Shown: in pieces, positions 4,767-28,398 of the stretch
Layout of the letters: each line of letters starts with the position of its first letter
Position numbering within the stretch: the stretch's first letter is position 1
Assembly (NCBI GenBank): GCA_000002445.1
Contig: CM000208.1
Coordinates: forward strand, 2,848,001-2,912,000
Direction: 5' to 3'
Length of the DNA: 64,000 nt
Source of the DNA: Trypanosoma brucei
Taxonomy: Eukaryota
Notes under the pieces: generated by a model
What the model saw: only the letters and a program-made list of their open reading frames with translations
Told to the model about the DNA's origin: nothing
Database searches by the model: none
Position numbers and translations under genes: made by a program

Positions 4767-5588
4767 ACAAAAAAAAAAAGACCCGCCTCTCAAGCCAAAC
4801 GGTTGTGTTGGTTTTATTTTGTAAGTTGTGGTTGTCATAGTTGGGATATTGCGTTTTCAGGCGAGGTGGGTGATAAAGAAAAGGGGGAGATTTTGTAATT
4901 TCAAATAAAGTTTCGAGAGCGTTACGGGTGGTTAACATAGAAAGAAAAAAGAGGAGAGAATGAATGCACTACTAAAAAGAATCAGAAGTAAAAGAGCTAA
5001 AGCGCAAATGATAAAAGTCGCCCGTGTACAATCTGTTTTTTTTTTCCAAACGCAGAGGTGGAATATGGTAAGAGGATTTTTCTTTCCTTTTTTTTTTTCG
5101 TCTCGCGACTGCGACAACGGATCGATAATAAGATATGCGGAACTAGCAGTAGAGAAGGCAAATGTCGGAAGAAAAGTGAGAGTGTAAACAAAAAAAGAGG
5201 GCTTTTAAAAAAAAAGATAAAAATATAATAAACAAGGAAATGTAAAAAAAAAAAGAAAAAAACAAACAGAGGGAACAAAAGTGAACCTAAAGAAAAATTG
5301 AAAGGGAAATGTGACATTTTACAAGTTCCGAGTTCTGCATAGCAACAAATGCTCAAACTCCCTTCGGCATGCGCTCAAACATTCACGAATCGTTGTTACG
5401 TTTTTGCTGGCTTTCTCCCGTCGCTTTTTCATTTTGTTTAGTTATATTGTTGGTATTTCTTTTTTTTTTCTATAGCTATTTAGACTTTCTTATTATTGCG
5501 CGTTAGAAAGTTTTTTTTTTCCACCACCCAGACACATCTTTCGCTTTTCTTTTTCTTTTATTTATTTTACACCTTTTCATCAGATACG

Positions 5589-5612
5589 TATATATATATA
5601 TATATATATATA
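5589..5612. repeat. (TA)12 microsatellite
   Basis: Read directly from the sequence. Confidence 0.9.
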
Positions 5613-6128
5613 GTTCCCCGTTAATTTTCTTTTTCTTTTTTTGTTATTCGAAATAGTTATATGATAATGTGATATGCTTAAAATAAAAGAAAAAAAGTAG
5701 ATCCACAAATTTAAAATTTAATTTAACTATGATTGTCGTTTTTATCTTGTGTTGATAAAAACGGGGTCGGATGGTGTTTGCGTTTTTGTATATGCCGAAT
5801 AAAACTGCAGAATATATTTATATAAAATATTTATAGTAACAAATTAGCGACTTTTCATCTCACTTCCTCCGATTCTGTTCGCTTTTTTTCGCTGTCTCGT
5901 TATTTATTTACTCATTTACTTTTTTTTTCCTCTCTCCCCTCCCTCCCCTACCCCCTTTCGTATAAAAATATAAATATATTTATAAATGTGTTAGTCTCTG
6001 CGTTTCCTTTTATTACTTTCTCTGTTTTATTTTTCATCTTTCGATGTTTTGGCGTGCAGCTGTAGGTTTTGTGTTTTTTTTATTATCATTAAACTTAATC
6101 ACTATTCTTATTTTTGTATTTTCTTTTA

Positions 6129-6152
6129 ATATATATATATATATATATATAT
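6129..6152. repeat. (AT)12 microsatellite
   Basis: Read directly from the sequence. Confidence 0.9.
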
Positions 6153-8398
6153 GTTTTAGTTACTAGTGGCTTGCTTTTCTACGTTTCTTTTTGTTTTTTT
6201 TATTTATGAGTCGGGGCGAAGGAAGCGGTGCCTTTCCTTCATTTTACCTCTGAGTTATTAATTTTTTCCCCCCATTTTCCCCCTGCTCTCCGCCTGCCAT
6301 CAGGATCTGGTTTATTATTTTAATTTTCAGCACCATCATCACCGCTATTCCCTTCTTTTTTCTTTTTTTCCTTTTTTCTTTTGACATTTTGTCATATTTT
6401 TGTTGTTTTTGTTGTTTTTGTTGTTAAAAATATGATTTGGCTTTCATGTGTGTCGGCTTCGGTTTCGTAATGAATGCATTACAACATAACCTTCTTATTG
6501 CTTTTCATGCTGGCGTTTGTTTCATTTTGTTTCTTTTTTTTTATTTTTCCTGCGTCGACCTCAATATCCAACCGTCATGTTGCACCTGAGTGGTGGATGA
6601 GGAACAGGACGGTAACAAACAGATAAAAAATAAAAATTAAAATCAACTTCAAAACTTTGTTGAGTTCCCGTTGATGTTTATAAAAATGAATGATGATGAT
6701 GATAATAATAATAATGATAACAAATGCTGTCGCTCTTGTTGTTAATATAACCATTTTTGTTATTGTTAAATTGTTAAGAGGTCAACGATGAGGCAGTGGA
6801 TGATTTTTATTCATATGAACAAATTAAGTTGTTAAAAGTGGCGCCAATGGAAAGTGATTTGAAGGTGTGAAGTAAAGAAAAAGAGAAACAACAGCGGTAA
6901 TAAATACCATTTTTTTCTTTTAAAAAAAGAAAAAAAAAGGTACATACGACATCTGAAAAGGGGGAAGGCATAATCATGATATCAGTAATAATATTAATAT
7001 TACCAACAAGGCAAGAGGCAGGGAAACAAAGGGAGAGAAGGGAGAGGAGAAACATACAAAAGGAAAAAAAAGATAATAATAATAATAACAATAACAATCA
7101 CAATAATAATAATTATTATGTGATGTCTCCTCTTCCTCCTCCGCATTCTCCTTAAATGACACAACCCCTTTATAAAAGGGGGAAAAGAAAGAAAAGAAGA
7201 ATGGTAATTGTGTTTATGTATGTGTGTTTATGAGTTGGAGGGAGGGAGGGGAAAGCGGTATATCAAATGAATAAAATGACAAACCGAAACCGAGCCAAAA
7301 CGAAAGAGGAACGTAAAAAAAAAAGGAGGAGAAATGACAGTAAAGATATGGAGTGTAATAAAACTGAATAGAATGAAACAGAGAGCAAGGAAAAAGAAAA
7401 GGAAAGGAAAAAAGACAGATTGGTAAGGACGACATTTGTTTTGAGGAGCGGCAGTGGGAAATAGCGTGAAAAAGAGAAAAAGAAAAAAAGAAAAGGGAGC
7501 GAGGCGAGTGTTGAAGTGAAATACTGTGGGGTATTTTTGGACACCACGAATGAAACAAAAAGATATGTACACTCAAACATGAAAAAAAAAAGACAAATAC
7601 ATTAAATATGAGGAATACAGAATAGAAGAGATGAATAGAAGATGCGTACCCGGGTGCTCATGACTGGTACGACATTTACATGTTTTGTTTTGTCTTTTTT
7701 AAAATAAATAAATAAATATATATATATTCATGTGGTTGGAATGTATATGGAGTGATGTGGAGGTGTAGTGGTAGTTATGCAGATGGCGAATGCTCACTCG
7801 CAGCAACTGTAATTTGTCTTATGTTTTTACTTTGTTCCTCTTTCATCCTTTTAATTTTTTGGCGAATTCAAGAAGGTGAGGGCGAAGGGAAACAAACAGC
7901 AGGAAATGGGGTGAATTTTGTTGAAAGAAAAAAAAAGTGAATAAAAAGAAGGTAGTGATGCTTACCACTATATATCAGGTTCTTTGCGTCTGATTCAATA
8001 GAAGAAACGGAGAGAAAATTGTGTACAATGTATAATTGCTTTGCATTTTTTATACGCACGCGTGATAACTTGTAGTGCCTCCCCCCTATTCTCTTTTTTT
8101 CCTTTACAAACACAACTCTCTGAACTTAAAAGGGGAAGAGTAGAGACGGAAGCGAGTGCGGAGGCGGATGGTTTTAACATCTAAATACCGTTACTCATAT
8201 TACTTGTGTGAAAGACTTCGCTTTTTTTTTTTTTGTAAAAAATATTTCTCCACCTGAGTTGTAAGTCCATGATGGAACAACGCGTGAGGTGAAAGGAACA
8301 GAGAGGAAGAAAGATAGAGTGGCGGAAACGGACGGTCTTATGATTGTTTCTTTTCCGACGAGTCTTTCACATTAATTCAATCAAATATGCATAACTGA

Positions 8399-8466
8399 GT
8401 TCTCTCTCTTTTTTTTTCTTTTTTTCTTTACTTTTCTTAATTCTCCTTCTCCTCTTTCTTCCTTTA
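8399..8466 (+). promoter_or_regulatory. Long polypyrimidine tract upstream of the MAP kinase gene, a candidate trans-splice signal with AG near 8505
   Basis: ttctctctctttttttttctttttttctttacttttcttaattctccttctcctctttcttcc read directly; the next AG dinucleotides follow before the ATG at 8535. Confidence 0.45.
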
Positions 8467-8534
8467 CAAATTACTATTTTTCTTTGTTTTTGCATGCATT
8501 TCACAGGGATAGGATTACGCTTTAATTATTAATC

Positions 8535-9776
8535 ATGAACCGTAGTTCGAGGAACCTTGCAGAGATGCAGGATGAGATCAACCAGTTGGACGACCGTTAC
8601 AAACTTGAAAAGATAATTGGTGCGGGATCCTATGGTGTCGTCATCCGCGCGAGGGATACCACAACAAACGACCTAGTGGCCATTAAACGCGTCAATAAGG
8701 AAATATTCGAGGAAATAATCCTTGCAAAACGTATTCTTCGCGAAATCAAGCTGTTGGCACACTTTCACCACGATAATATCATTGGACTCCGTAACCTCAT
8801 CACCCCGGCCGACCGCGACAACTATGATTACTTTTATATTGTCATGGATGTAATGGAGACCGACCTGAAGCAAGTGCTCCGAACTGGCCAAAGTCTCACG
8901 GAAGGTCACATACAATATTTCATTTATCAAATCTTACATGCCCTAAACTTCATCCATTCTTCAGGTGTTATTCATCGAGACATCACCCCGGCCAACATTT
9001 TAGTCAATAAAAATTGTGATTTGAAGATATGCGACTTCGGACTTTCCAAAGAGGAGAGTGATCAAGGGGAGCACATGACAGATTATGTTACCATGCGTTG
9101 GTACCGTGCACCGGAGCTGGTGATGGAAGATAAGAGGTATTCCGCACAAATTGATGTGTGGGGAGTTGGAAGTATTCTTGGTGAGTTGCTGGGCGCCCGA
9201 CCCCTGTTTCAGGGAAAAGACCGTGTGAACCAACTGGACAAAATCATTGATGTTATCGGAACTCCATCTGAAGAGGATATAAATTCCATCGGGTCCACTG
9301 CGGCGCAGAAGTATTTAAAAAAGAAGTCATTTCGTCCTGCACCCGATTGGGCCTCCGTATATCCCAGAGCGAGTCCAGAGGCGCTGGACTTATTGCGGCG
9401 GATGTTGGTGTTCCATCCAGACAAGCGCATAACTGTCGCTGAAGCATTAAAACATCCCTTCCTTAGGGATCTGTACGAGGAATCCGATGTACAGGTTAGT
9501 ATCCAGCACTTTAACTTTGATGAAACACAACATAAAACAATTCAGGAGGTAAAGTGGGCGGTGTATGATGAGAGTGTGGCATTTCACAAAAACCACCCCC
9601 GGACAGCACCTAGGCCACAACAACAACAACATTCTGCGCAACAACCCGCCGCTGCTGCATCTCTTCCAACTGTTGATATCGCTGGAGAGTGGCGGTCAGC
9701 GCAACAAACAATTGAGCGGGGCGAGGAGGAATGTGGTGCGGAGCAGTTCGACAAATATGTGGGTTCCGTTGAGTGA
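8535..9776 (+). CDS. Mitogen-activated protein kinase (TDY activation-loop type) with a Gln-rich C-terminal extension
   Basis: 413 aa. Gly-loop GAGSYGVV; VAIK-like VAIKRV; catalytic loop HRDITPANIL; DFG motif; activation-loop T-D-Y in HMTDYVTMRWYRAPE; MAPK-typical GTPSEEDI segment and a CD-domain-like C-terminal region. Confidence 0.9.
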   Translation: MNRSSRNLAEMQDEINQLDDRYKLEKIIGAGSYGVVIRARDTTTNDLVAIKRVNKEIFEEIILAKRILREIKLLAHFHHDNIIGLRNLITPADRDNYDYFYIVMDVMETDLKQVLRTGQSLTEGHIQYFIYQILHALNFIHSSGVIHRDITPANILVNKNCDLKICDFGLSKEESDQGEHMTDYVTMRWYRAPELVMEDKRYSAQIDVWGVGSILGELLGARPLFQGKDRVNQLDKIIDVIGTPSEEDINSIGSTAAQKYLKKKSFRPAPDWASVYPRASPEALDLLRRMLVFHPDKRITVAEALKHPFLRDLYEESDVQVSIQHFNFDETQHKTIQEVKWAVYDESVAFHKNHPRTAPRPQQQQHSAQQPAAAASLPTVDIAGEWRSAQQTIERGEEECGAEQFDKYVGSVE

Positions 9777-9888
9777 TCAAATTCAGTTGTTAAAAGGGCG
9801 TCTGCGAAAAAAAGAAAATAATAATAATAATAGGAAAATGAAATAAACAAAACAAAACAAAAATAACGAACAAGAAAAAGGAAAGGAA

Positions 9889-9906
9889 GGAGGAGGAGGA
9901 GGAGGA
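9889..9906. repeat. (GGA)n microsatellite
   Basis: ggaggaggaggaggagga read directly. Confidence 0.8.
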
Positions 9907-10655
9907 AAGCTGCAAGAGTGGGTATAAGCACGTGCATGTATGCGTTTGTACGTTTTTTTAAAATTTCGTTTTGTCTCAGGGAAGAGCAGCTTTAATGGGA
10001 TTTCCTCGGCCTGCTTAGCTGATGCTGCGGCGGCCGTATTACGTGAAGGGATGCTAGAAATATGATATAATACGAAGGCCGAGAGGTATATATTGCGTGC
10101 GATGGAATAAAGTGAAGAGAAAGTTGTTGGAGGTGACGGTGCAAAAATTCAAAGCTATCAAATAAAGACTCATCGGGTAAATGGGAAATAAAAACTTAAA
10201 CGAAGAGAAACAAAAGAAAAAAGGGTGGAGGGGAACGTAAATAAGAAACAGATAAGCAGCAACTGACAAAAATATGAAGGTAGGGGTGGTGCGAAAAGAA
10301 AGGAAAAATTTGCCCGTGTGTGTGTGTATGTGTTTAAAGGAACGGGGGTCAAAAGTAAAATAAATCGAATGAATAATTGGGGGAAAAAAGGAAAGGAGAG
10401 GTTAAATGAAACAAAAGGAAGGAAATATGAGCATATGGCTACAAGTATATGATTCTGTCGGTGGAATGAGATGGTTAAGAGGAGTAGAGGAAATAGGGAT
10501 TCTACGGAAAAGTGAGTTGATGGAACGTATGGTAAAGGACTGCGGTGGGTTTCGTATGGTTTTACTTATGAAAAGAAAGTCATTTTACCCTCCTCCTGCT
10601 GTCCCCGACTTGTGTTTGTTGGTTTTGTTTTGTTTTGTTTTGCTCCGATATTTCA

Positions 10656-10685
10656 TTCCCTTCCCTTCCCTTCCCTTCCCTTCCC
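10656..10685. repeat. (TTCCC)6 pentanucleotide repeat
   Basis: ttcccttcccttcccttcccttcccttccc read directly. Confidence 0.9.
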
Positions 10686-12196
10686 CTCCTAATCTATACG
10701 AATTTAGAGGGTGAGCGTTCGGTGTTTGAGGACGTCATGCCACTCACGGATGAATTCTCATGCTCATTTCTTGTGTGTGCGTGGGAAAAGGGCAGGGTAA
10801 AGGAGGAATTACTTATTTATTGTATTATTTTTTTTTAAAAAAGGAGAGGAATAGGAAATGGGAAGGTGTGCAGTGAATGGCTCAAGGTGATGAGATAGAA
10901 TATGATGGTTACCGTGGGTGCTTTTTTTTTTTGTTGATTCGTTGGTTGGTTGTTTGATTTATATGTTTCTATACTTATATGTGTGTGCTTGTAGCACCTT
11001 CATATTCTGACGTTACATACGCATATTTGATATTTCTTCTTATATTTACTTACATATGTATAGTCCTAAAAATTCTTTAAGCAGCGCCAGCAACAAAAAG
11101 AATGCTTGACTTCCATCACACATTTTTTCTTTCTTTTTTTCTTTTTTTTTTTCTGTTTATGCTTCCATCATTTTTACCATTTTCCCCGTTCCTCAATTGT
11201 CGCCGACATTATTATGGTTCCTTTTCATTCTTTTCCCATGTTTGTTTACATTCCCCTTCTCTGGGTTAAGGAATGCTTGGCGCGTGTATTTCAAATAAAC
11301 AGCATGAAGCTACTTGCCTTCCGTGACTGCCTAGCGTTCTTCCGTCGCTTCGTTTTGTTTGTGTTTTTTTTTCTTTTTTCCTTCTAGGTATTTAATTTCT
11401 TTTTTCCTTCTTATCTTCCATTCGGTATTTTACATGTTGGTGTTATTATGACGAGGCTTGCTTAGGTATGTTGCTCCCGTTGCGTTGTGGTGCTCCTTTT
11501 TTTTTTTTTACTTTTTGGTCACTTTTAATTCCTACGTGGCTCTCTGTGCGGACGTGGTGTACAACCTTTCCTACACGTACAAATATACAAATATGCGCAC
11601 ACTTACATACGCGGGTACGTATATACGTACATCTACATATGTATTGGTTTTGTGTTCAAATTAACATGTGTCGTTGCTACCATCGCTCTTTTTTTTCTTT
11701 GTTATTAATATTAATATTGATATTAATATTATTTATATTGCTGGGAATAGCATTACTATTTTTCTTTCTTTCGTTAACTATCTCCCCCCTTTCCGAATTC
11801 GTTTCTTCTTTTTTAAAAAAATTCTTTACCACCCAACCCAATTTCTTTATTTTTCCACCGTCGCACAGTTGGAATGAATGAATATCGGAGACAATTGAGG
11901 GTAAAGAGAAACTCAAAAGGAAAAGAGAAAGAGGGATAAAGGAAATGACGGGAACAAAAACAAAAAATAAAATGAAAACTAGAATTACATTTCTCCTCAT
12001 CTTCCTTCCCTCCCTCCCATATATACACACATATGCACACACTTCTGATATCGAAACGGGGAAAATGAAGGGGAAAAATAACAGTCACATGATTGGATGG
12101 GTGTGTAGTCGACGGTGGGTGCGGGACCCCTCCGGAAACTGCGAATTGTGGAAAGAGAATCGGGTGCCAAACGTCGGCAATATTTTGCAGCACTTC

Positions 12197-12219
12197 CTGA
12201 CTGACTGACTGACTGACTG
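12197..12219. repeat. (CTGA)5-6 tetranucleotide repeat
   Basis: ctgactgactgactgactgactg read directly. Confidence 0.9.
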
Positions 12220-12496
12220 TGCGGAAGTGCGCGTGTATGTTTATATATTTAATCCGTCTGTGTATACATATATTCATCAATCTGCACGAGTGTGTGGATT
12301 ACAATTGTGTGTTGAGCCTACGGCATGGTCGGTTGCGGCTTGCGAAGCTGTTTGTCTCGCTTTTACCCAACTACTGTTGTCATTCTTGTTTTTACCATTA
12401 TGTTATGCTGTTTGCTTAATGCTTTTCATTCCCGTTATTTTGGTGGAAGGGCTTCCGGGGAGTCGACTGTGAATTCATTTCCAAACTAGAACTAGG

Positions 12497-13366
12497 ATGG
12501 TACTCCCACGCAAGTTGGTCGGTCAGTGTTGTTTACTGCTGCAGAAGAAGCAAACAGCGGCAAGCTATATGGCAAATGCAGGGAAAGTAGGAAGCGAGGA
12601 GAAGTGGGCGCAGGCCGCTATGGAGTATTTGCACGAAAAGCGTCACTGCAATGATAGCCGTAAACGGCAGCACGATGTGGATAATGAGCGACGCATGGCG
12701 TTTGCCTTTGATCGTTACTGCTCTGTAAATGAGAAAATTTTCACAGAGCGACTTTCCCGCTTATCGGACCGCATGACTGAGGCGCTAGAGACAATAAAGC
12801 AACTGGGCATGGACCATGCACTTGAAGAGGCATTGATGTTGTCGTCGGAGCAGCCCCCTTTGAACTTTCGCCGTCCAACCCTCACACCACCAGTTGCTGG
12901 ATATGAGCCTGGATTTGGACTTGACGTCCCTCAACTCCGCTCGAGGCAAGCGGAGTATCCACCGGTAGGGAGACCAACCGATGCCATGGAGTTTGGGGAA
13001 GAAAAGGATCCGTCGTTTCCCCTCGTTGAGTCGTTCCGTGTAGAGGACCTCACTACGCAGTGCTTAAATGAATTAGAGGAAAGGCATGGTGAGATACGGG
13101 AGGCAGCACCAACAACAGGTGTGGAAGGTGAGGCATGGGAAGCATATGTGGCGTTGCAAAAGAAAGCGTTAGCGCGGCAACAGCTTATATTTGAACTTTG
13201 CAACGATGGGGAATTGCGGGAACGGTATGATTCGGACGTTGCGTTCCGGCAGCGGGTGTGGGAGGAGAGAGGCATGCTCCCGCTTGAGATTGAGCGGGAA
13301 CGGCTGCATGAGGAGCCACGGCACTATGCCCAGGAGCCGGCCTATCACCCCTTTAGGAAGATGTAG
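12497..13366 (+). CDS. Hypothetical protein
   Basis: 289-aa ATG ORF with complex, non-repetitive composition on the coding strand; no named domain recognised. Confidence 0.5.
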   Translation: MVLPRKLVGQCCLLLQKKQTAASYMANAGKVGSEEKWAQAAMEYLHEKRHCNDSRKRQHDVDNERRMAFAFDRYCSVNEKIFTERLSRLSDRMTEALETIKQLGMDHALEEALMLSSEQPPLNFRRPTLTPPVAGYEPGFGLDVPQLRSRQAEYPPVGRPTDAMEFGEEKDPSFPLVESFRVEDLTTQCLNELEERHGEIREAAPTTGVEGEAWEAYVALQKKALARQQLIFELCNDGELRERYDSDVAFRQRVWEERGMLPLEIERERLHEEPRHYAQEPAYHPFRKM

Positions 13367-14606
13367 GATGCAGGTGGCGGGTGAGGGTCGCTTCATGGCT
13401 TAGGTTCGTCCGTTTTGGCGCTGTCGCTGCGGGTTATTTTTGCCAGGCCCTTTCTTTCTTTCTTTGTTATCGCTGTTGTCACCATTGTTGTTAATGGTCA
13501 CTCAAGTTTGTCGGTTGACTTCTTGTGGAAGGAAGTGCCACACATGGGTTCAAGTTGGTGTAAACTACGCGGCGTGATGTTCTCTAGATGTGGCGTGGCC
13601 CCGTCTTCTTTCGTAAACCTTCCAAAGTCAACTATAACACAAAGTGGTGAGCGTACTGCCCTCGGTGTTTTTTCTTCATGTCGTCTGTCACCACGAAAAG
13701 GCAATAAGCGAAGCGTCATCATAAGTAACCAAATAGTTTACATGTGTTGGCTAACAGTGTATGCGGTTTCCCAACGTGGCACCGGATGTGCGTTGATGAC
13801 GGGCAGGAGACCGATTTTTCGGCCTGACCCACAGTACCCAGCGCCTCGGGCGTCGCAACGTAACACTTTGGGTTTATGATTCCTCGGCGGTTGGGGGATC
13901 GTGACAAAGGACCCCAATGCTCCACCGCTTGTGCTGGGTAACTCGTGTGCATCATCCTTTAACTGTCGAGCCGATGAATTCAACTCACTAGCTTCTTGCG
14001 CAGGTTGGTGCGGAAGTCTCTCGGTGGGGTGTTCCCGCAGGGGGAAGGGCCATTTATTTTTTCTCCGCTAATCCCGATGCATACGCGCATGGAGGACGCA
14101 ACAGGGTTTGGTAGCTTGTCATCATAAAGCAGATGATTAAAAGCATTATTTAATCTCTCAGTGCGGTTGTATCCATTGCGTGAATGCGTTGCCGCGCGTT
14201 ATTGAATGACTGCGCACACAGTTGTGTGCTGATGGTTTACGCGTTACCGACAGGATCCAACCAGGGATAAATTTGAAGGTGGTTTCCCTGCAGAGGGGTG
14301 ATGTTAAGATATACGAAGGAATGCCTGGGAACGTACCCGCATGTTTAGTCGATTCAAGGGATAAAATTGTTTGTTGTATGTCACAGATTGAATGTAACTC
14401 TGAAGTTTTACAGTTAGGACTACCTTCTTTACTACGGTGGACAGTATCTGAGGAATGCGGCTGAACATCGCGTGTGGGAAGTGCCCTGTCAGATGGATAT
14501 GTGTGGGAGAAGTTATTATTCCGATGTGTTGACTGTGAGAATATAACCGAGTCACATGTGCCTCTGCTTCCGGTTCCCAATTGCACTTTCCACTGATAGA
14601 AGTTAA

Positions 14607-14998
14607 GGGTGTATCGGGAGAGGGTCCAACAGCACGGTGAACGGGATGATTGATTTTGACACAGGGCGTATGCTTTCAGTGAAGGTGCTCGTAAGGCACA
14701 TTTTCTACAAGTTCAAGTTCAAGTAAAAATGAGACTAATGGAGTCTCATTAGTTGTCGAAGCACATACTGCGCAGAGACCATCTGATTTTGATAACGCAA
14801 GTCTAACCCGCACTTTTGTGTGAGTTCTACGTTCTTCAATCGCTTTCGCACTCTGTTATTGTGCGATACTTGGGTGTAGAGGTGACTCCGACGCCTCTAT
14901 GCTTGGTGATGGAATACGTAGCGGGTGACCAGTTAGAAGACATTATCAATAAAACTCAGGTTCGCCCAATTAATGTGCCAATCACCTGTACATTCTAA
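14607..14998 (+). pseudogene. Relic of a protein-kinase N-lobe (subdomains I-V), frameshifted and truncated
   Basis: Reading frame 3 (14607-14723) gives CIGRGSNSTVNGMIDFDTGRMLSVKVL, a Gly-loop plus VAIK-like Lys, and then hits a stop. Frame 2 (14807-14998) gives CEFYVLQSLSHSVIVRYLGVEVTPTPLCLVMEYVAGDQLEDII, the alphaC Glu through hinge subdomains III-V. No HRD or DFG segment follows. The two pieces are separated by a palindromic insertion. Confidence 0.5.
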
Positions 14999-16642
14999 AA
15001 CTACTGCCGGGTTTGGGATACCTTTAATAATTTTGTGTTACCCACTGAAAGACCGAGAGTACCAACATGCTTTTGTCAGCGATCGGGAAGTTAAAATGTC
15101 GTGGATGTGGAGCAATCTTCTTTATTTTTCGCTCTTCTATTTATTCAAAAAACTTAGCTCAGTTTTTATTTTTAATATATTCCAAAATTGGATTCCTTTT
15201 CCTCTATGGTTTGACCGTGTATCGTCGTTACCATCTTTATTCCCCTGTGGGACTATACAGATATAAATTGTTTTCATCCCATTGTCACCGATTCGACCCT
15301 TTCCATACTATTGGGTTGTTCTAAAAGGTGGTAGTTTCTTCTTATCTTACCTTACCTCCACTTTATTATTATTATTACTTAAAAAGAAAAAAGAAAATGG
15401 CGTCTGAACCACAATTTTGCGTTATATAACATTCGCGTGAAACTTTCTTGAACATACAAAAGAAAATACGTAGCTGTAACTGTTTTTTTTTTAAAAAAAA
15501 CTTACGTTTTATGTTCTATTTTTTTTAGCCCCTTTTTTTTATTGCTCTTGCTTTTATGAGGTTTCTCAGACCGTACGAGGCGCTTTGTACCCAATTAAAT
15601 CTGAGGGAAGCGGAACGGGAAAATGTATAAGTGTGAACGGCAGTGCACTTTCTACACAAATCAGTGGGGATATTTATTTATTTTTTCCTTCTTCTTTGTC
15701 ATTATTTATTATTTTTTTTATTGATGTGTTGGATTATTTTGTTTTCCCTTTTGGGTTTTTATTCGGGCAACGTTTGCTTATGGAGAAGGAAGACAAGCAC
15801 ACCGCAAAAAAAAAAAAAGAGCGCTGAACATATGCGTATAAGAGAGAGAGAGAGATGAGGGATGTCAGGAGCAAAATTGGAGCGTGTGTGTCTATGTTGC
15901 AGAGGAAATGGTTACTGAGGTGACTGAAGATGTTTTGGCACTGCACAAGTAATTGGGGAGGGGAGGGGAATAAGGGATTAAGGAGGATAAAGTGTGAGTG
16001 AAAGTAGTAAAATAACCGAGTTCCCCTGCGGTTATTGCATTGAACGCACGCAGAACGAGTGGGACAGGGGCAATTTTTTTTTTTTTAATTGCTTCTTTTG
16101 GGTTGCTCACTTCTTCTCTATCGTCAGTGCCAGATGCGCACATCAGAACGTGGGCCACGTGAGACAAAAGAGAAAATGAAACAACCACTCACATATCAAC
16201 AATAGCCTTTGTGATAATAAAAATGAAATTACGCGACGTGTGTGTGTGTGTGGGGGGGCAGTGTTTTATTCCATTCATACACCTCCACGCCCAGTGTGCG
16301 AGCGCTAAATTTATGTGTGTAAATGTACCCTAAGGGACAACTGCGTGTGGAGTACTCTCTGGTTTACTGACTTCTTGTTTCCCTTTCGTCCGTTTATCTT
16401 TATTTATTTTTTTTTACTTTATTACTGCTATGTAGCGGACCTGAGATATACGTTATATATTTACACGTTTCTGCATAGTTGCAAATATGCGTGTATCTCA
16501 TTTTTTCCTGTGGTTGCTGCGACCCTGTGTGTGTACTGGGTTTGTTGATTGTGGCCGTATCGGTTACGCCTTCCAGTCACACTCATCCTTCGTAACTAAT
16601 GTACTTATATTTATCTATATTTGTCGAAATGCATGTGTTTTT

Positions 16643-16685
16643 ACGCTTTTACTACTTTTCGTCCGTGTCCTTCTCCTAACCGCAG
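16643..16685 (+). promoter_or_regulatory. Polypyrimidine tract plus AG upstream of the 1493-aa gene
   Basis: acgcttttactacttttcgtccgtgtccttctcctaaccgcag read directly, about 120 nt upstream of the ATG at 16808. Confidence 0.4.
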
Positions 16686-16807
16686 ACGGAAGGGTTAGCA
16701 GTAGTGTATCTCCCCTAAAGGGGGATATAATCTGTGAAAAAGTAAAGTGAACGTAGTATTCTTGGGTCGTACTAGAATAGCATAGGAAGGAAGGATATTA
16801 AACCACT

Positions 16808-19800
16808 ATGCGGGGGAGCTGCAGCGAGGGTGCATTATCAGGAGGATGTTTGCCATCTAGAGCTACAACAAACCCCTTAGGAGGACCCAGTTCAGCCGGA
16901 TCACTGGAAATGGCTGAGATGTTAGGAGCTGAAGCATTTTACGGGTTACCTATTCTTTGTTCCCTGTGGTCTGAGCGCAAACTCCCAAAACGACGCGGCG
17001 CGAGGGGGAGAGGCCAACATTGGTCTTGTGCTTCGGGTGAAAGCGGCAAGAAGCGGAATTGCAACCTTCCTCCACAGCTCCTCTTCACCATTATGAGTTA
17101 CCTCCTACCAGAAGGTATGTTGAAAATGAGGTTGGTTTGCCGTACCTTCAACGACGTGTTCCTCACGTACAGCGTCCAGGAAACATTCGCCGTGTCACTC
17201 CCCCGTAGTTTCATGGAACCGACAGTAGGATTTCAAACTCTCTCAGGACTGATAAAAGAACGTGAGGCCGTTCTACGCAATAAGGAGCGCTCCTGGTCTA
17301 AGTGGCTCTCAGCATACGTGGTGATGTGGCTCCGAAAAGAAGCAAACAATGATACCATAAGCAAGGCGACGGTGGAGGGACAAGCCCTGTGGGTGCAGCT
17401 TCAGCGATCGCGGGTGTTATGTCGGCTCGCAATGGAGGAATGGCTCGGGCACCTCTCAGACTGCCGCCGTGCGCAGTATAATATACGTAGGAACTGGTTC
17501 AACCCAACAAATTTGGGTTGTACGTTGCGGACTGGAGTGCCGCCCGTTTTCCTACCGGATGGAACACTCTGCATTAATGACCCACCAGATGTAGTGAAGT
17601 TTTACGCCAAGCGTGACAGGGGGTTGCCTTTGTGTGAAGATGCGCTCTCTCACAAAACTGTATCGCGAAAAAACGACTCGCTTAAGGACATGTGGGCTCC
17701 CTTTGAAGAGCTTGCGTTTCCTGCATATGTGTGTCTAATGTATTATGACCCTTACGTGGATGCGCTCCACATCAGTCTGGCGAGCGGCACGTGCACACTT
17801 TGGCGTGTGAACAGCATAGGAATTGAGGCTGCAGCGCATCGCACTGCATCTGAAGCGGATTTTGAGAGTTCTTCACATCAACTGTGGCGTAAGACTGATC
17901 TTCCTTGCCGTAGCATCCCTAGCAGAATTGAGGTGGTGGGAAACTACACCATTTCTAGCGAGTTTCTTGCTTGTTCCGTGACGATGACAAGAGACGGTAT
18001 TAAGCTAGAGGACTACAGGTGGAGTGAAGACGAAGTGATGTCTAAAGTGCGTTTGTTTGGTGAGGGCGCGAATGGCGACACTAGTCGTATCATCGTGGCA
18101 AGTTGTGGCCGAGACGTGTCAGCATCCCTTCTTCCGAGAGCCACTGCCGGTGATGCACACCTTACGAAGGAGGATGTGGCAGTACTGAACATTTTGCAAA
18201 ATCAGTTGTCAAACGCGAGTAACAGTGTAAACAGACCTCGAGCGGGTCCTACTCGCGGTGAAGCTTCTGCGAATGAATCCCATAGACCGTCTGCCACCAA
18301 CTCTGTTGATGGTATTAACGGTGGGCATAACGATGTGGAGAGTGGCAATAACGGCGGGAATATCATTTCTATTGCCGGTGGGCCTGGTAACGGAGCATTT
18401 GAGCTGCTTGTTGACGACATTGAGCACGAAGGAGTAGGAACTGCTGCGTCTGAGGTAACCGCTAACCACCTGGAAGGGGAAAGGGGAGATAGAATCACCG
18501 ACTTCAGGCCCTCTTCAATCACAATTAATTCCACCGAGAGAATCGACATAAAGCGACACGTTTTTGGAGTGTTCAACGAGCAGGCGAGACTGATGTGCAC
18601 TGTTGCGATCACACACGAAGTGGCTGTTTTCATTTTGACCCAATCAGGTTGCAGGACATTAGGAGTAAATTACAGCGGAGGAATACATGCTGCGTCCGTG
18701 CTGAGCTCACCGGTGTTTAAGCGTTGTGAGTCACCTACAGCAGAGCACCCGTGCGAGGAGGGAGATGCATTGTTTCTGTGCGCCTCTCAACACAACGTAC
18801 TAATCTGTCAGCAGAAGTTATATCGTCGCCTGGAAGAGGTTGAAATATTGGTTATTCACCAGAATCACCGAGAGGCAGCAACATCACGAGGCGCTTTGCG
18901 GCCAAGTGAGCAGCGTTATGGGACGTGGTATTTTCTTAAGGGGTATTCATACCACTCTCCACCAATGATATTGAGACCATTGGTGGAGGTTTCTTCTCTT
19001 ATGCTGCAGGCATTCGTTCAACCGCGTCCCCTATTACCGGAGCATCTAGAATGGCTCAGTAAAAGGTCAAATGAGGGAACATGCAAGGTAGATTGTCAAC
19101 GGCAGCGGGAGGAGCACCTCCCGCCGTACAAGTCTTCCTGGTGGTGCCCGCAAAGGGACGGACACCCTTACTTCCACAAGCCATTTGTAATGTTTATTTC
19201 AAAATTTGTGGGGTATCTACTTGCTGGTTGCGACTGTACTTCCGGGGGATACCAGGAGGTCTCTACGGACGACCGAGAGCATTTTCATAGCGTTCCCCTC
19301 CTTGATGGGATTGCAGTGAAGCGGCTCCACCCGTCCGCAGTGGCACTGTCGCCTTCGCATGCTTTTTTCGTCCTCGGAATGGAAAACGGTTCGATTCTGA
19401 TGGTGTCTCCATCATGTCGAAAGTGTGATCAGGCAAAAGACGGTCAGGGGGGTTGCACCACAGATGCGCAGGTCAATGGGGCCCATCTCATTGAGCAATT
19501 GGACACCATATCCATTCCCGAAGGTGGGGAGGGATATTTGGCGAGCAGAGAAGCCCCCCAACTTCTTGTTGCTGGCGAGGACTTGCACGAGGAAGGAGCG
19601 GATGAAGGAGAAAGCTCCTCAAGCTCCGAAGATGAGGCTGCACACCCCCGCTCTCAACACCCACATACAAGCCATTTATACCGAACAACAATAATTAGCA
19701 ACAGGGTGCGTGGTTCGGCGCGGCAAAAGCGCAACCTTCGGTCGTTCACCCCACAACAGCTGTTTGGATGTGCTTTCCATGAGGATCCATACATCTCTGC

Positions 19801-21289
19801 GTTACAGCGCTGTTCATCATCGATTCTTAATTCAATGGAACGCCTTGAAGGGGAACAGCGGCGGCACCATCCCACACCGATTCATGCCGTCTGGATTCAT
19901 GCCCCGCGTGATTGCTACCGGTTCTCACGTAAGTCAGGCATATGGAGTATGCACTTGGATGATTGGAAATTAACCGTACTTAACAGGCTGTATGAACTAA
20001 CGGTATACGACCTCTCTATGCAATCTTTCGTCGGAAAAGACAATGTTAAAGGGAGTGTTGTGTTCGCACCACTACTAACACTGAGCCCATATTTAAGTCA
20101 TCCGTTTCTGGGTGTCCCAATGAAAGATGAGGAGAAGTGGCTTTGTTCGAAGATACGTAGACGGATGCGGGCGGAAACGGAACGAACTGCCTCTGGATGG
20201 GAAATTGTGTGGCACAATGGAGTGCTGGTTGTGCTTGGAGTGTCAAAAGGATGGAGGTACTCCGTTTTTGACTTTCATGCAAGGTTTAGTGACCCCGATG
20301 TGAAAAACTTTTCAGACCCAGCGCCAGTGGCATATTCAGCTAAGCGAGACGAGTACTATGAAAGTATTTCTGGTTCTCAAATGTTAGTGCCTCTCGATTT
20401 TGGAAAAAAAGGGACTCACAAGCTAGCGCTGCCCCGTCACTTCCCACTCCTTAGGCGGGACGAGAATATGTATTTGGTGAGGCTTTCGGTAAGGGCCGTC
20501 ACATTGGTGTTTCTATGCGTGGCGTTAATACTGGTGATGCTGCGTATCGATGGATATATCACAGCGCCGCATTGGGTCGCAGCCGCTGCTTACGCTCCGT
20601 ATGCACTAGACGTCATCGCCAACTCATTCACAGACTATGATAGATATTACATAGTCCGTAGTGACGTGCCATTTTACATTCGTCTTTTCTCTGACCTGCT
20701 TCTCTATATCGTGTTCCCCGTTGTTTTCACTCTGCGTCGTGATTTGTACCCGAGATTCAACACGCCGTGGATCGTCCTGACAATACCGTTGTGTGTTGCC
20801 ATCGCTATGAAGTCACTGCCGGACATTTATATTAATATGCACCCCGGGCAGCGGCACTGGTTTGCGTGGGTTACTACATCGCGACTGTTGAAGGCGCTGT
20901 ACGAATGGCTGATAATTTCGACAATCGTCCTTCTAGCTCTGTATTTCGATGGTCCTTCTGGTCGTGATCCACTTGCACCGAAGTTCCACATTGCTCTGGC
21001 CTTAACTCCGGTAATGTTGTTAATATTAATATTGAAGGTGAAATCTGCTGCTGCCTTTGTCCGAACTGGAAACTGGAGGCTTTATCTTACTTGCTTATTT
21101 CCATTACTTCTGTTGGCACTTCAGGTGATGCTGTTCGTTGGTGAGTTCAAGGACTACTATGAATATATTGGTAAACCGATCACCACGCCTAAACCGTCGG
21201 CGTCTCAGTCCCTTTTCATTCTTCCCTTTTCTGTTATTGTGGTGGCGATTTACAAGGGATATACCGTGGCTTCAGTTCTTTGTAGGTAG
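16808..21289 (+). CDS. Large hypothetical protein with an N-terminal F-box-like motif and a C-terminal polytopic membrane domain
   Basis: 1493 aa. LPPQLLFTIMSYLLPEGMLKMRLVCRTFNDVF fits the F-box consensus LPxEiLxxIfsyLxxxdLxxxxxVCkxW. The last 300 aa or so contain about six long hydrophobic helices (for example LVFLCVALILVMLRI, WIVLTIPLCVAIAM, LIISTIVLLALYF, LTPVMLLILIL, LFPLLLLALQVMLFV). Confidence 0.7.
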   Translation: MRGSCSEGALSGGCLPSRATTNPLGGPSSAGSLEMAEMLGAEAFYGLPILCSLWSERKLPKRRGARGRGQHWSCASGESGKKRNCNLPPQLLFTIMSYLLPEGMLKMRLVCRTFNDVFLTYSVQETFAVSLPRSFMEPTVGFQTLSGLIKEREAVLRNKERSWSKWLSAYVVMWLRKEANNDTISKATVEGQALWVQLQRSRVLCRLAMEEWLGHLSDCRRAQYNIRRNWFNPTNLGCTLRTGVPPVFLPDGTLCINDPPDVVKFYAKRDRGLPLCEDALSHKTVSRKNDSLKDMWAPFEELAFPAYVCLMYYDPYVDALHISLASGTCTLWRVNSIGIEAAAHRTASEADFESSSHQLWRKTDLPCRSIPSRIEVVGNYTISSEFLACSVTMTRDGIKLEDYRWSEDEVMSKVRLFGEGANGDTSRIIVASCGRDVSASLLPRATAGDAHLTKEDVAVLNILQNQLSNASNSVNRPRAGPTRGEASANESHRPSATNSVDGINGGHNDVESGNNGGNIISIAGGPGNGAFELLVDDIEHEGVGTAASEVTANHLEGERGDRITDFRPSSITINSTERIDIKRHVFGVFNEQARLMCTVAITHEVAVFILTQSGCRTLGVNYSGGIHAASVLSSPVFKRCESPTAEHPCEEGDALFLCASQHNVLICQQKLYRRLEEVEILVIHQNHREAATSRGALRPSEQRYGTWYFLKGYSYHSPPMILRPLVEVSSLMLQAFVQPRPLLPEHLEWLSKRSNEGTCKVDCQRQREEHLPPYKSSWWCPQRDGHPYFHKPFVMFISKFVGYLLAGCDCTSGGYQEVSTDDREHFHSVPLLDGIAVKRLHPSAVALSPSHAFFVLGMENGSILMVSPSCRKCDQAKDGQGGCTTDAQVNGAHLIEQLDTISIPEGGEGYLASREAPQLLVAGEDLHEEGADEGESSSSSEDEAAHPRSQHPHTSHLYRTTIISNRVRGSARQKRNLRSFTPQQLFGCAFHEDPYISALQRCSSSILNSMERLEGEQRRHHPTPIHAVWIHAPRDCYRFSRKSGIWSMHLDDWKLTVLNRLYELTVYDLSMQSFVGKDNVKGSVVFAPLLTLSPYLSHPFLGVPMKDEEKWLCSKIRRRMRAETERTASGWEIVWHNGVLVVLGVSKGWRYSVFDFHARFSDPDVKNFSDPAPVAYSAKRDEYYESISGSQMLVPLDFGKKGTHKLALPRHFPLLRRDENMYLVRLSVRAVTLVFLCVALILVMLRIDGYITAPHWVAAAAYAPYALDVIANSFTDYDRYYIVRSDVPFYIRLFSDLLLYIVFPVVFTLRRDLYPRFNTPWIVLTIPLCVAIAMKSLPDIYINMHPGQRHWFAWVTTSRLLKALYEWLIISTIVLLALYFDGPSGRDPLAPKFHIALALTPVMLLILILKVKSAAAFVRTGNWRLYLTCLFPLLLLALQVMLFVGEFKDYYEYIGKPITTPKPSASQSLFILPFSVIVVAIYKGYTVASVLCR

Positions 21290-24233: not shown

Positions 24234-25502
24234 TGGCGAGTGTTTACAACAGTGTCGGGGTCGTGTCTGATGATTGTCTCGCTCATATTAACCTCTTGGG
24301 TGCGCTTATTGTTTCCCTCTCTCCATCAACTACTATTTCATATTGTCTTCATTGACTTTTGGTCAAAGTTTGTCAGTTTGTTTTTATTTTGTTTTCCGGA
24401 AAGGAAATATACGAATGCCTGTGGAGGTGTGTGTGTGTATGTGTACGTCCTTTTCTTTCTTAACATCACCATGCTGCAACTCTGGAAAATGAGTATGGTT
24501 GCAAGCGATTACTTTTATTCGTTTCTGTTTTCCGTTTCCTCACGGATGTGTGTCAGCTCAAAACCTCCCCATTTCCTATCGGTTTGAGCGTTGTAAATTC
24601 TTATCGTCCCGTGTGTTCCTTTTTAGTTTGAAGTCACAGCACTCTCCGTGGTCGTTTTGTTCCTTCGCTTCATTAATTTTTTTCATTTTTTTTTTTGGAT
24701 TGTTTGGATCCGCACAAGGCAAGAGGCAAATTGAAAATGCAAACATGGGAGGGTGTGGTACCTTCCACGCAACACGAGACTCTGTAGTTGGTGTTCGAAC
24801 GATTTAGTCAATCTCTATAGTTATTACGTACTTTTTCCCCTTTCCATCCGATGTCTTTTGCTGTCGTTGTTTTCAAAAATACAAAAGGACAGAATTATAG
24901 GTTCAATAACGGAAGGAAAGTTTGTGAATGCAGCAAAGGCAAGATATGTGAACGAGCTTCAACCACAGAGGTGCTATAAATTTAGGAGGCTGCAGGGCGC
25001 AAGCTGGCGCTTTCTCTTTCCTAAGAGGAGAAGGGAGCGCTCCATGTGACGCCAAACAAAAAGTTCATTCACTCCCGTTCGCATCCTGTGTGATTCCCTT
25101 TCTAACAAAACCGTGCACGTGATGAGAGTATGTTCTTTCTATATACTGATTTGTCCATTGAAGTACACAGATACATATTCATAGACTGTCGTTTCCCTGA
25201 CCGCATTTCCACCGGTTTTCCCCCTCTTTGGATGGATTGATTCGATAAATCTTTCTGTTGTGGTCTTTTCCACACCCCTGCGTTACATGTACCATGCAGC
25301 TTGCTGTTGAGCTGCATCGAAGTGGGATGAAACACTTGAGAACTGTTGTGGCTTACGTACCTTTAGCTGCGTACTTCTCGCTTCTCACTACTCATTCCTC
25401 CGTATCTTCTGCTTTACCTCTCGCTCTTTAAAATCCACACTGCCAGAAACAACGAAACCGTTTAAGCGGGACAAACTAATTAATTTTGTGGGAATTGCCA
25501 GT

Positions 25503-28046: not shown

Positions 28047-28398
28047 TGTTTGATTCCTACCTTACTTCGTGAAGTGCACACAAGTTTCTTGTTTTTTCAC
28101 ATGTATTTCGGGTGGGAATTGCGTGACGTGACGCATATAAACTCCGGCTGAGGCGATTAATGTCGTTTTAGGTAATCGTCATGAAGGTTTCCATAGCATG
28201 GATCCGTGAATTTTCTTTCCGTGAGCCCTCATTTGCAGTGTTTATTAACCATATGTGGCCACCTCATGATGAAGCTGCTTCACCTTCTTCCCTTCAAACA
28301 TGCCGGTCTCCACCTTTTCACCCACTCATTTCCCGTATTGCGGTGGTGTTGTCATCTTTGAGCGACGTGCCGTGGAATGTGTATGTGTGAGGAAGATT

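What the first reader, a model, noticed from the sequence alone, without database searches (positions are those of the whole stretch)
14607..14998. Protein-kinase N-lobe relic split by a perfect 9-bp-stem palindrome
Two adjacent reading frames encode consecutive kinase subdomains. Frame 3 gives the Gly-loop and VAIK Lys (CIGRGSNSTV...RMLSVKVL); frame 2 gives the alphaC Glu through the hinge (CEFYVLQSL.HSVIVRYLG...LCLVMEYVAGDQL). A frame break lies between them, and no catalytic or activation-loop subdomains follow. Exactly at the break (14727-14749) lies aatgagact-aatgg-agtctcatt, a perfect 9-bp inverted repeat with a 5-nt loop. The element looks like an insertion or footprint that disrupted a once-intact kinase gene. 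It sits inside a 3.4-kb gene-free gap, so the locus is probably a decayed gene.
Basis: seen in the sequence. Interest (0 to 1): 0.5.

Follow-up and report, generated by a model that had tools for sequence, protein, structure and literature searches.

The report
Decayed FHA-kinase pseudogene in Trypanosoma brucei
This is the dead, unannotated remnant of a protein-kinase gene that other trypanosomes still keep intact at the same chromosomal spot; the small palindrome inside it is part of the old coding sequence, not an inserted element, so the locus is an ordinary example of gene loss.

Summary
The window is Trypanosoma brucei-group chromosome 10. The finding lies in the 3,441-nt gap between Tb927.10.12050 (mitochondrial LSU ribosomal protein) and Tb927.10.12060 (F-box protein).

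The kinase-like peptides are real. Stitched across three frameshifts, they score 54.9 bits (E 1e-14) against Pfam Pkinase and 94.7 bits (E 3e-27) against one particular gene. That gene is an FHA + STE11-like kinase of 811-2096 aa. It sits intact at exactly this syntenic position in T. grayi, T. theileri, T. cruzi marinkellei and Leishmania.

The relic spans about 14537/14613 to 15126. It carries at least 3 frameshifts and 5 in-frame stops, and both the catalytic Asp and the DFG Asp are lost. No FHA region or C-lobe is detectable.

It is 38-39% identical to the orthologs, which are 66-70% identical to each other. Between T. brucei subspecies it diverges at least as fast as the flanking noncoding DNA.

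The palindrome is real but lies at 14728-14750. It is single-copy in the window and lies within sequence colinear with the orthologs' beta3-alphaC insert. The T. brucei insert is shorter than all three Trypanosoma orthologs measured, so an insertion or footprint is not supported.

Verdict: an ordinary unitary pseudogene, of low interest.

The parts
13367..16807 (+). Gene-free gap between Tb927.10.12050 (12497-13366) and Tb927.10.12060 (16808-21289). In T. grayi and T. theileri this interval holds two intact genes, an FHA-kinase and an amino-acid transporter.
   Evidence: ORF lists. Gene identities from exact protein matches, primer matches and papers PMC6283605, PMC7568655 and PMC12816148. Synteny.
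14537..14612 (+). Tentative 5' edge of the relic. ENITESHVPLLP / FPIALSTDRS*GC aligns to the segment just before the Gly-loop of the T. cruzi marinkellei ortholog (EFLTQSVKAAPFPLQLQWGGP). It has one frameshift near 14573 and a TAA stop at 14604-14606.
   Evidence: Frameshift-aware alignment with one ortholog only; coordinates. This is a soft boundary.
14613..14690 (+). Kinase subdomains I-II in frame pos%3=0. The Gly-loop is IGRGSNSTV (orthologs IGRGASSVV) and the beta3 strand is MLSVKVL, with the Lys codon retained at 14682-14684.
   Evidence: tblastn against the T. grayi and T. theileri orthologs gives 54% identity, E 1e-4 to 3e-4. An HMM of three orthologs gives E 1e-6.
14701..14766 (+). 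Remnant of the lineage-variable beta3-alphaC insert, in frame pos%3=1: FSTSSSSSKNETNGVSLVVEAH. It is Ser-rich like the orthologs, with KNE.G and G-x-S motifs shared with T. theileri, T. cruzi and T. grayi.
14708..14725 (+). CAAGTT hexamer tandem, about 3 copies. T. b. gambiense DAL972 has one copy fewer. This is a slippage-prone tract in the interval where the first frameshift must lie.
14728..14750 (.). Perfect inverted repeat AATGAGACT-AATGG-AGTCTCATT. It is single-copy in the window and identical in T. equiperdum OVI and T. b. gambiense. It is embedded in ancestral coding sequence.
   Evidence: The RNA fold of its 81-nt context is not unusual (z = -0.82).
14816..14950 (+). Subdomains III-V in frame pos%3=2. 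It holds the alphaC Glu (14822-14824), SHSVIVRYLG, and the hinge LCLVMEYVAGDQLEDIIN.
   Evidence: tblastn gives 45-50% identity to the orthologs, E 4e-11 to 6e-10. HMM E 1.9e-11. Pfam Pkinase E 1.5e-7.
14953..15126 (+). Subdomains VIa-VII in frame pos%3=1. In-frame stops lie at 14971 (TAA), 15025 and 15028 (TAA TAA) and 15046 (TGA). The catalytic loop is H-*-K-T-E-S-T-N where the orthologs have H-G-D-L-K-x-A-N, so the catalytic Asp is now Lys. The DFG position reads G-C-G (15103-15111). Similarity stops at 15126, and T-rich low-complexity sequence follows.

Best explanation
The locus is a unitary (syntenic, non-duplicated) pseudogene. It is the roughly 0.5-0.6 kb remnant of the African-trypanosome ortholog of a trypanosomatid FHA-domain STE11-like protein kinase. 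Intact examples are T. grayi XP_009311183.1 and T. cruzi XP_812000.1.

The ancestral gene order was MAPK11, mt-LSU ribosomal protein, FHA-kinase, amino-acid transporter, F-box protein. In the T. brucei lineage the kinase lost function and then drifted neutrally. It accumulated at least 3 frameshifts and 5 stop codons, and its catalytic residues were replaced. I infer that its 3' half was deleted together with the neighbouring transporter gene. The 5' FHA-coding part has decayed, or been replaced, beyond recognition.

The 9-bp-stem palindrome is not the cause. It lies inside the poorly conserved beta3-alphaC insert of the old coding sequence. It most likely arose there by chance substitutions, or possibly by a template-switch event (this last is inference only). 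The relic encodes nothing. Because it sits inside a polycistronic transcription unit, it is presumably transcribed only as part of an intergenic or UTR segment; this too is inferred, not shown.
For: - Organism and locus. There are exact protein matches to T. brucei TREU927 and T. equiperdum proteins. Published Tb927.10.12040 primers match the ORF at 8535-9776 (PMC6283605).
- Synteny. Directly downstream of the 12050 ortholog there is an intact FHA+Pkinase gene in T. grayi (840 aa), T. theileri (894 aa), T. cruzi marinkellei (811 aa) and Leishmania sp. Namibia (2096 aa). In T. grayi and T. theileri an Aa_trans gene and then the F-box ortholog follow.
- Similarity. The relic aligns colinearly to ortholog residues about 270/290-473, with frameshift-aware score 183-199 against 29-43 in comparable shuffled-protein and weak-region runs. 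BLASTP of the stitched relic against the T. grayi protein gives 94.7 bits, E 3e-27. The best solved kinases reach only about 40 bits.
- Kinase family. The intact ortholog carries Pfam FHA (6.7e-13) and Pkinase (3.9e-54). Its best solved relative is MAP3K2 (1e-36), and some T. cruzi records name it STE/STE11.
- Decay. The relic is 38-39% identical to the orthologs, which are 66-70% identical to each other. Stops, frameshifts and lost catalytic residues are documented.
- Rate within the species. Against T. b. gambiense the relic differs at 1.88% of sites, flanking noncoding DNA at 1.0-1.6%, and flanking CDS at 0.7-0.8%.
- Same lesions elsewhere. Two other assemblies carry the same relic, T. equiperdum OVI and T. 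b. gambiense DAL972.
- Complete loss in T. vivax. Its gap is 1.3 kb with no trace of the kinase.
- Kinome counts. The published kinome lists fewer FHA kinases in T. brucei (1) than in T. cruzi (2) or L. major (4) (PMC1266030).
- No insertion. The linker is shorter than in the three Trypanosoma orthologs measured, and the palindrome arms align to ortholog codons.
Against: - No FHA-coding remnant was detectable upstream, although the distance from the upstream gene to the Gly-loop (1,247 nt) is almost the same as in T. grayi (1,229 nt). Whether the 5' part was replaced or only decayed is therefore open.
- The alignment within the variable linker rests on short motifs and is weak on its own.
- T. 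congolense and other Salivaria could not be examined, so the timing of the loss is unknown.
- The homolog search that found no salivarian ortholog also missed the T. theileri protein. It cannot prove that T. brucei lacks an intact copy elsewhere.
- No expression data were available.
Confidence: 0.9

Rival explanations
1. A palindromic mobile element, or the footprint left by its excision, was inserted between the VAIK and alphaC subdomains and inactivated a previously intact kinase gene.
For: A perfect 9-bp stem with a 5-nt loop lies 3 nt after the stop that ends the first frame. The probability of such a hairpin arising by chance in that 134-nt linker is about 0.005, judged post hoc.
Against: - There is no extra DNA. 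The T. brucei Lys-to-Glu spacing is 140 nt, against 174-198 nt in the three Trypanosoma orthologs measured.
- Both arms align with ortholog coding sequence in a consistent frame.
- It occurs only once in 64 kb, and I saw no obvious flanking direct repeat (sequence read).
- Comparable perfect hairpins occur elsewhere in the window, 14 observed against 1.6 expected.
- The gene has at least 8 other disabling lesions and lacks its C-lobe.
- From my own knowledge, no cut-and-paste DNA transposons are known in T. brucei.
Confidence: 0.03
2. The relic, or just its hairpin, has been kept because it now works as non-coding RNA. It could be part of a long regulatory 3' UTR of Tb927.10.12050, part of a 5' UTR of Tb927.10.12060, or a lncRNA.
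For: The region lies inside a polycistronic unit, since every large ORF in the window is on the + strand, so it is probably transcribed. The palindrome is identical in three Trypanozoon assemblies.
Against: - Between subspecies the relic diverges at 1.88%, at least as fast as neighbouring noncoding DNA.
- A polymorphic 6-nt indel and a SNP lie right next to the hairpin.
- There is no Rfam match.
- The local fold energy is not unusual, z = -0.82.
- T. vivax has dispensed with the whole segment.
- The three assemblies are only 0.2-2% diverged, so identity of a 23-mer says little.
Confidence: 0.06
3. The frameshifts are assembly or sequencing errors, and T. brucei really has an intact kinase here.
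For: None beyond the general possibility.
Against: - The same frameshifts and stops occur in three independent assemblies.
- Substitutions remove the catalytic Asp and the DFG Asp.
- There are 5 stop codons.
- No C-lobe, FHA or C-terminal tail sequence is present in any frame.
Confidence: 0.01

Closest known systems
Trypanosomatid FHA-domain STE11-like protein kinase. Examples are T. grayi XP_009311183.1/KEG10585.1 (840 aa), T. cruzi CL Brener XP_812000.1/Q4DC95 (811 aa, named 'STE/STE11 serine/threonine-protein kinase' in KAF8297560.1), T. rangeli XP_029237364.1, and the T. theileri and Leishmania syntenic genes.
   Same: - It occupies the same chromosomal position, directly after the ortholog of Tb927.10.12050.
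- It matches colinearly from just before the Gly-loop to five residues past DFG, at 35-39% identity (94.7 bits).
- It shares an unusually long Ser-rich insert between beta3 and alphaC.
- It shares the IGRG-S/A-S-x-V, IV(R/Q)(Y/C)(L/V)GV and LEYVAGG-type motifs.
   Different: - The T. brucei copy is not a gene. It has at least 3 frameshifts and 5 stops, and both the catalytic Asp and the DFG Asp are replaced.
- No FHA domain, activation segment, C-lobe or C-terminal tail is detectable.
- It is roughly 0.55 kb long, against 2.4-6.3 kb for the intact genes.
Unitary pseudogenes and lineage-specific gene loss within conserved trypanosomatid synteny blocks. This is general knowledge from the TriTryp comparative genomics papers; I did not re-read them here.
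   Same: A single-copy ortholog is inactivated in place. Its flanking genes and their order are retained, and it decays at the neutral rate.
   Different: Nothing in principle. This instance appears not to be annotated. The locus tags Tb927.10.12050 and .12060 are consecutive, and I found no literature mention.
Human MAP3K2 kinase domain (PDB 9p6a), the closest solved structure to the intact ortholog.
   Same: It has the STE11-type kinase fold and matches the intact T. grayi protein at E 1e-36. The relic itself matches MAP3K2 at 1.3e-8.
   Different: The relic scores equally well or better against CDK2 (3e-9). The relic alone therefore cannot be assigned to a kinase group. The STE11 assignment comes from the intact orthologs.

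Membership tests
Eukaryotic protein kinase domain (Pfam PF00069) | Sequence match above the Pfam gathering score | tested here: met
   The stitched relic scores 54.9 bits against a cut-off of 31.7, E 1.1e-14, over profile positions 7-138 of 263. This is reached only after joining three reading frames and masking the stops.
Eukaryotic protein kinase domain (Pfam PF00069) | Uninterrupted open reading frame across the domain | tested here: not met
   There are at least 3 frameshifts, at about 14697-14725, about 14815 and 14951-14952. There are 5 in-frame stops, at 14604, 14971, 15025, 15028 and 15046.
Eukaryotic protein kinase domain (Pfam PF00069) | Catalytic residues: beta3 Lys, alphaC Glu, catalytic-loop Asp and Asn, DFG Asp | tested here: not met
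   The Lys (14682), Glu (14822), His (15043) and Asn (15064) codons are retained. The catalytic Asp is now Lys (15049) and is preceded by TGA. The DFG position reads GCG (15103-15111).
Eukaryotic protein kinase domain (Pfam PF00069) | C-lobe subdomains VIII-XI (APE motif, alphaF Asp, subdomain XI Arg) | tested here: not met
   Nothing scores above the shuffled controls in 15127-16807 in any frame.
Trypanosomatid FHA-STE11-like kinase orthogroup | Syntenic position between the Tb927.10.12050 ortholog and the downstream genes | tested here: met
   covering four species.
Trypanosomatid FHA-STE11-like kinase orthogroup | Closer to this orthogroup than to other kinases | tested here: inconclusive
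   The relic scores 94.7 bits against the T. grayi ortholog, about 40 bits against the best PDB kinases, and shows no similarity to the neighbouring MAPK11. It was not compared with the full T. brucei kinome, because no such database was available.
Trypanosomatid FHA-STE11-like kinase orthogroup | N-terminal FHA domain | tested here: not met
   Frameshift-aware alignment of the ortholog N-termini to 13367-14612 scores 37-43, against 29-40 for shuffles.
Unitary pseudogene | Disabled in place, no functional constraint, intact orthologs elsewhere | tested here: met
   Lesions as listed above. Identity is 38-39% against 66-70% among the orthologs. Divergence between subspecies is 1.88% in the relic against 0.7-0.8% in flanking CDS, from small counts (11 substitutions).
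   The linker is 34-58 nt shorter than in the three Trypanosoma orthologs measured, and the arms align to ortholog codons. I saw no obvious flanking direct repeat (sequence read). The 23-mer occurs once in the window. Genome-wide copy number could not be tested.

The most novel reading that the evidence does not exclude
The perfect palindrome might be the signature of a template-switch (quasi-palindrome correction) mutation in neutrally evolving DNA. The orthologs carry only short ATGA...TCAT complementarity at the same place. Alternatively, the relic might survive because it has been co-opted into a long UTR or lncRNA within the polycistron. Either reading would make this small fossil a marker of a mutational or regulatory process in T. 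brucei rather than mere debris.
Probability: 0.1. Interest if true: 0.3.

Novelty: new member of a known kind. Interest (0 to 1): 0.15.

Why it matters
The finding pins down, at base resolution, how T. brucei lost one of the FHA-domain STE11-like kinases that T. cruzi and Leishmania retain. It explains part of the smaller FHA-kinase count in the published T. brucei kinome, and it shows that the neighbouring amino-acid transporter was lost at the same locus. This is useful as a genome-annotation note, as a neutral-evolution marker for Trypanozoon and Salivaria, and as a caution that this kinase cannot be studied or targeted in T. brucei. It does not reveal a new mechanism.

Tried and rejected
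- Word-indexed homolog search with the stitched peptide found nothing: 6 candidates, none significant. The relic is too decayed for shared 5-mers. The synteny route was used instead.
- Paralogy with the upstream MAPK11 gene: no similarity.
- FHA-coding remnant upstream (13367-14612): scores no better than shuffled proteins.
- C-lobe or C-terminal tail of the kinase, and the amino-acid transporter, in 15127-16807: nothing clearly above controls. The best transporter score was 47 against 35-43, in a T-rich stretch.
- RNA families in the gap: none. Hairpin fold energy: unremarkable.
- T. vivax gap: no kinase trace by tblastn and no blastn similarity to the T. brucei gap.
- Literature search for an annotated kinase pseudogene here, or for an ID between Tb927.10.12050 and .12060: nothing found.
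- The final homolog search, with the T. grayi kinase at E <= 1e-30, returned only non-salivarian Trypanosoma species plus two environmental proteins. It also missed T. theileri, so the absence of T. brucei hits is only weak evidence.
- I did not run the 1.84-billion-protein HMMER search. A query of about 45-60 aa from a decayed kinase could not reach significance there.

Full report
**Where we are.** Four large ORFs of the window are identical to proteins of the Trypanosoma brucei group (TREU927, T. equiperdum OVI, T. b. gambiense) on chromosome 10.
- The ORF at 8535-9776 is MAPK11, Tb927.10.12040. Published primers for that gene match it exactly (PMC6283605).
- The ORF at 12497-13366 is Tb927.10.12050, a mitochondrial LSU ribosomal protein (PMC7568655; weak MRP-L28 Pfam hit).
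- The ORF at 16808-21289 is the F-box protein Tb927.10.12060, a TbCul-A adaptor (PMC12816148; Pfam F-box).
- All large ORFs are on the + strand, as expected for one polycistron.
- The finding lies in the 3,441-nt gap between 12050 and 12060. These locus tags are consecutive, and I found no paper mentioning a pseudogene here. The relic therefore appears to be unannotated.

**Checking the observation.**
- The quoted peptides are present. IGRGSNSTV...MLSVKVL lies at 14613-14690 in one frame, and LCEFYVLQSLSHSVIVRYLG...LCLVMEYVAGDQLEDIIN lies at 14816-14950 in another.
- The second piece alone hits Pfam Pkinase at E 1.5e-7.
- The palindrome AATGAGACT-AATGG-AGTCTCATT is real, but it sits at 14728-14750, one base to the right of the stated coordinates.
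- The claim that no catalytic subdomains follow is wrong. A third frame (14953-15126) reads NSGSPN*CANHLYILKLLPGLGYL**FCVTH*KTESTNMLLSAIGKLKCRGCGAIFFI.
- That stretch aligns to subdomain VIa, to the catalytic loop (H-x-D-x-K-x-x-N, with H and N kept) and to the DFG position of solved kinases and of the orthologs.
- With the three frames joined, the relic scores 54.9 bits (E 1.1e-14) against Pkinase, over profile positions 7-138 of 263.

**What it is a relic of.** I fetched the DNA downstream of orthologs of Tb927.10.12050 in other trypanosomatids.
- The next gene is an intact FHA + protein-kinase gene in T. grayi (840 aa), T. theileri (894 aa), T. cruzi marinkellei (811 aa) and Leishmania sp. 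Namibia (2096 aa).
- In T. grayi and T. theileri it is followed by an amino-acid transporter (Pfam Aa_trans) and then by the F-box ortholog.
- The intact protein has Pfam FHA (6.7e-13) and Pkinase (3.9e-54). Its closest solved relative is MAP3K2 (1e-36). Some T. cruzi records name it STE/STE11.
- tblastn of these proteins against the T. brucei gap gives three colinear hits in three frames.
- A frameshift-aware dynamic-programming alignment joins them into one path. It runs from ortholog residue about 270/290 to 473 and from DNA 14537/14613 to 15126, with score 183-199. Comparable runs on shuffled proteins and on weak regions score 29-43.
- BLASTP of the stitched relic against the T. grayi protein gives 94.7 bits, E 3e-27, in a single alignment that runs through the linker. 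The best PDB kinases reach about 40 bits, and there is no similarity to the neighbouring MAPK11.

**State of decay.**
- The path needs frameshifts at about 14697-14725, about 14815 and 14951-14952. A tentative fourth lies near 14573.
- It crosses stops at 14604, 14971, 15025, 15028 and 15046.
- The catalytic Asp is replaced by Lys and the DFG Asp by Gly.
- After 15126 the sequence turns into T-rich low-complexity DNA.
- Neither the C-lobe and tail of the kinase nor the transporter gene leaves a signal clearly above shuffled controls. The same is true for the FHA-coding N-terminus upstream.
- In T. grayi the stretch from the DFG motif to the F-box start is about 4.4 kb. In T. brucei it is 1.7 kb. 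About 2.7 kb must therefore have been deleted; this is inference from lengths.
- Over columns shared by all sequences, the relic is 38-39% identical to each ortholog, while the orthologs are 66-70% identical to one another.
- Against T. b. gambiense DAL972 the relic differs at 1.88% of sites. The rest of the gap differs at 1.0-1.6% and the flanking coding sequence at 0.7-0.8% (small counts).
- The same lesions are present in T. equiperdum OVI and T. b. gambiense, so they are not assembly errors.
- T. vivax has only a 1.3-kb gap here and no trace of the kinase.
- The published kinome comparison lists 1, 2 and 4 FHA-bearing kinases for T. brucei, T. cruzi and L. major (PMC1266030). This fits a loss in T. 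brucei.

**The palindrome.** Four results argue against that.
- First, the intact orthologs naturally carry a long, poorly conserved insert between the beta3 Lys and the alphaC Glu: 58, 60 and 66 codons in the three Trypanosoma orthologs. The T. brucei spacing is 140 nt, which is 34-58 nt shorter, so there is no extra DNA to explain.
- Second, the palindrome reads KNETNGVSLV in the third frame, and this is colinear with the orthologs' insert. The 5' arm region AAA AAT GAG matches T. theileri AAA AAT GAA (K-N-E). The 3' arm region GGA GTC TCA TTA matches T. cruzi marinkellei GGA TCC TCA TGG (G-S-S-W, also present in T. grayi). The downstream GTC GAA GCA CA matches T. theileri GTA GAA GCA CA in the same frame. 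These are short motifs in a variable region, so this point is suggestive rather than strong.
- Third, the 23-mer occurs only once in the window, and I saw no obvious flanking direct repeat (sequence read).
- Fourth, such hairpins are not rare here. The window contains 14 perfect hairpins with a stem of at least 9 bp and a loop of 3-10 nt, about 4-7 of them outside simple repeats depending on the cut-off, against 1.6 expected from a first-order Markov model. The chance of at least one in the 3.4-kb gap is about 0.10. The 0.005 figure for the 134-nt linker is post hoc.

The RNA fold of the surrounding 81 nt is no better than shuffles (z = -0.82), and Rfam finds nothing in the gap.

The frame-0 ORF ends at a TAA three bases before the palindrome. 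The actual frameshift can only be placed somewhere in 14691-14725. That interval contains a CAAGTT tandem whose copy number differs between the window (3 copies) and T. b. gambiense (2 copies). This is a more plausible source of small indels than the palindrome.

**How it most likely came about.**
- Shown: a single-copy syntenic ortholog has been disabled in place, and its remains evolve without detectable constraint.
- Inferred: after loss of function in an ancestor of the T. brucei group, small indels and substitutions accumulated. One or more deletions removed the 3' half of the kinase together with the transporter gene. T. vivax removed everything.
- The palindrome is most simply a by-product of neutral change inside the old linker. 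A template-switch mutation that extended a short pre-existing ATGA...TCAT complementarity is possible but untested.
- Nuclear genes of trypanosomes are not repaired by RNA editing and almost never contain cis-spliced introns (established knowledge). No mechanism could restore a kinase from this sequence, quite apart from the missing C-lobe.

**Comparison with what is known, and novelty.** The relic works like, and qualifies as, a unitary pseudogene.
- It passes the Pfam threshold only after frame correction, and it fails every test for a functional kinase: open frame, catalytic Asp, DFG Asp and C-lobe.
- It is orthologous by synteny and best similarity to the trypanosomatid FHA-STE11-like kinase, although its own FHA part is undetectable.
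- Gene loss inside conserved synteny blocks is a well-known feature of trypanosomatid genomes. This is a new, apparently unannotated, instance of a known kind.
- Interest is low (0.15). It is a tidy annotation and evolutionary note, not a new mechanism.

**Limits.**
- The last homolog search was run with a very strict E-value cut-off and demonstrably missed one ortholog.

Noticed in passing
window 15127-16807; L004:7642-8958; L003:15260-16642: T. grayi and T. theileri have an amino-acid transporter gene (Pfam Aa_trans, 6e-39) between the FHA-kinase and the F-box gene. T. brucei and T. vivax have no detectable remnant of it. Two adjacent genes were therefore lost at this locus.
   Followed up: partly
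L001:10871-12154 and L002:1160-2467 (T. vivax): The equivalent gap in T. vivax is only about 1.3 kb. It shows no kinase trace and no DNA similarity to the T. brucei gap. One assembly calls a 107-aa ORF there.
   Followed up: partly
window 14708-14725: The CAAGTT hexamer tandem is polymorphic: 3 copies in the window and in T. equiperdum OVI, 2 in T. b. gambiense DAL972. A SNP lies at 14725, just before the palindrome.
   Followed up: yes
window 13415-13879 (+); L008:731-1066: The T. b. gambiense annotation calls a 111-aa hypothetical gene inside the gap, equivalent to window positions about 13538-13873. It lies within a 154-aa ORF of the window. It has no Pfam match and is not similar to the FHA-kinase N-terminus. 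It is probably a spurious call, but I did not test this.
   Followed up: partly
window 14158-14586 (-): A 142-aa ORF on the opposite strand runs just upstream of, and slightly overlaps, the relic. It has only a sub-threshold Pfam hit (DUF3195_C, 16 bits). It is probably chance.
   Followed up: partly
L007:12604-18894 (Leishmania sp. Namibia): The Leishmania ortholog is 2096 aa. It has very large low-complexity insertions, including several hundred residues between beta3 and alphaC and within the activation segment. This shows how freely this kinase tolerates inserts at the position where the T. brucei palindrome lies.
   Followed up: no
window 1446-1482, 5584-5612, 6127-6158, 28391-28422, 45545-45568: (TA)n-type palindromic simple repeats in intergenic regions account for most of the excess of perfect hairpins in the window.
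   Followed up: no
window 2529-3698: The RecA/Rad51-like ORF is 389 aa in the window and in T. equiperdum, but it is annotated as 379 aa in TREU927 and T. b. gambiense. The start-codon choice or the N-terminus differs.
   Followed up: no
window 4767-8534, 9777-12496, 24234-29140: These are other multi-kilobase stretches without ORFs of 200 aa or more. The MAPK11-to-12050 spacing is 2.7 kb here, against about 1.1 kb in T. grayi. I did not examine them for further gene relics.
   Followed up: no
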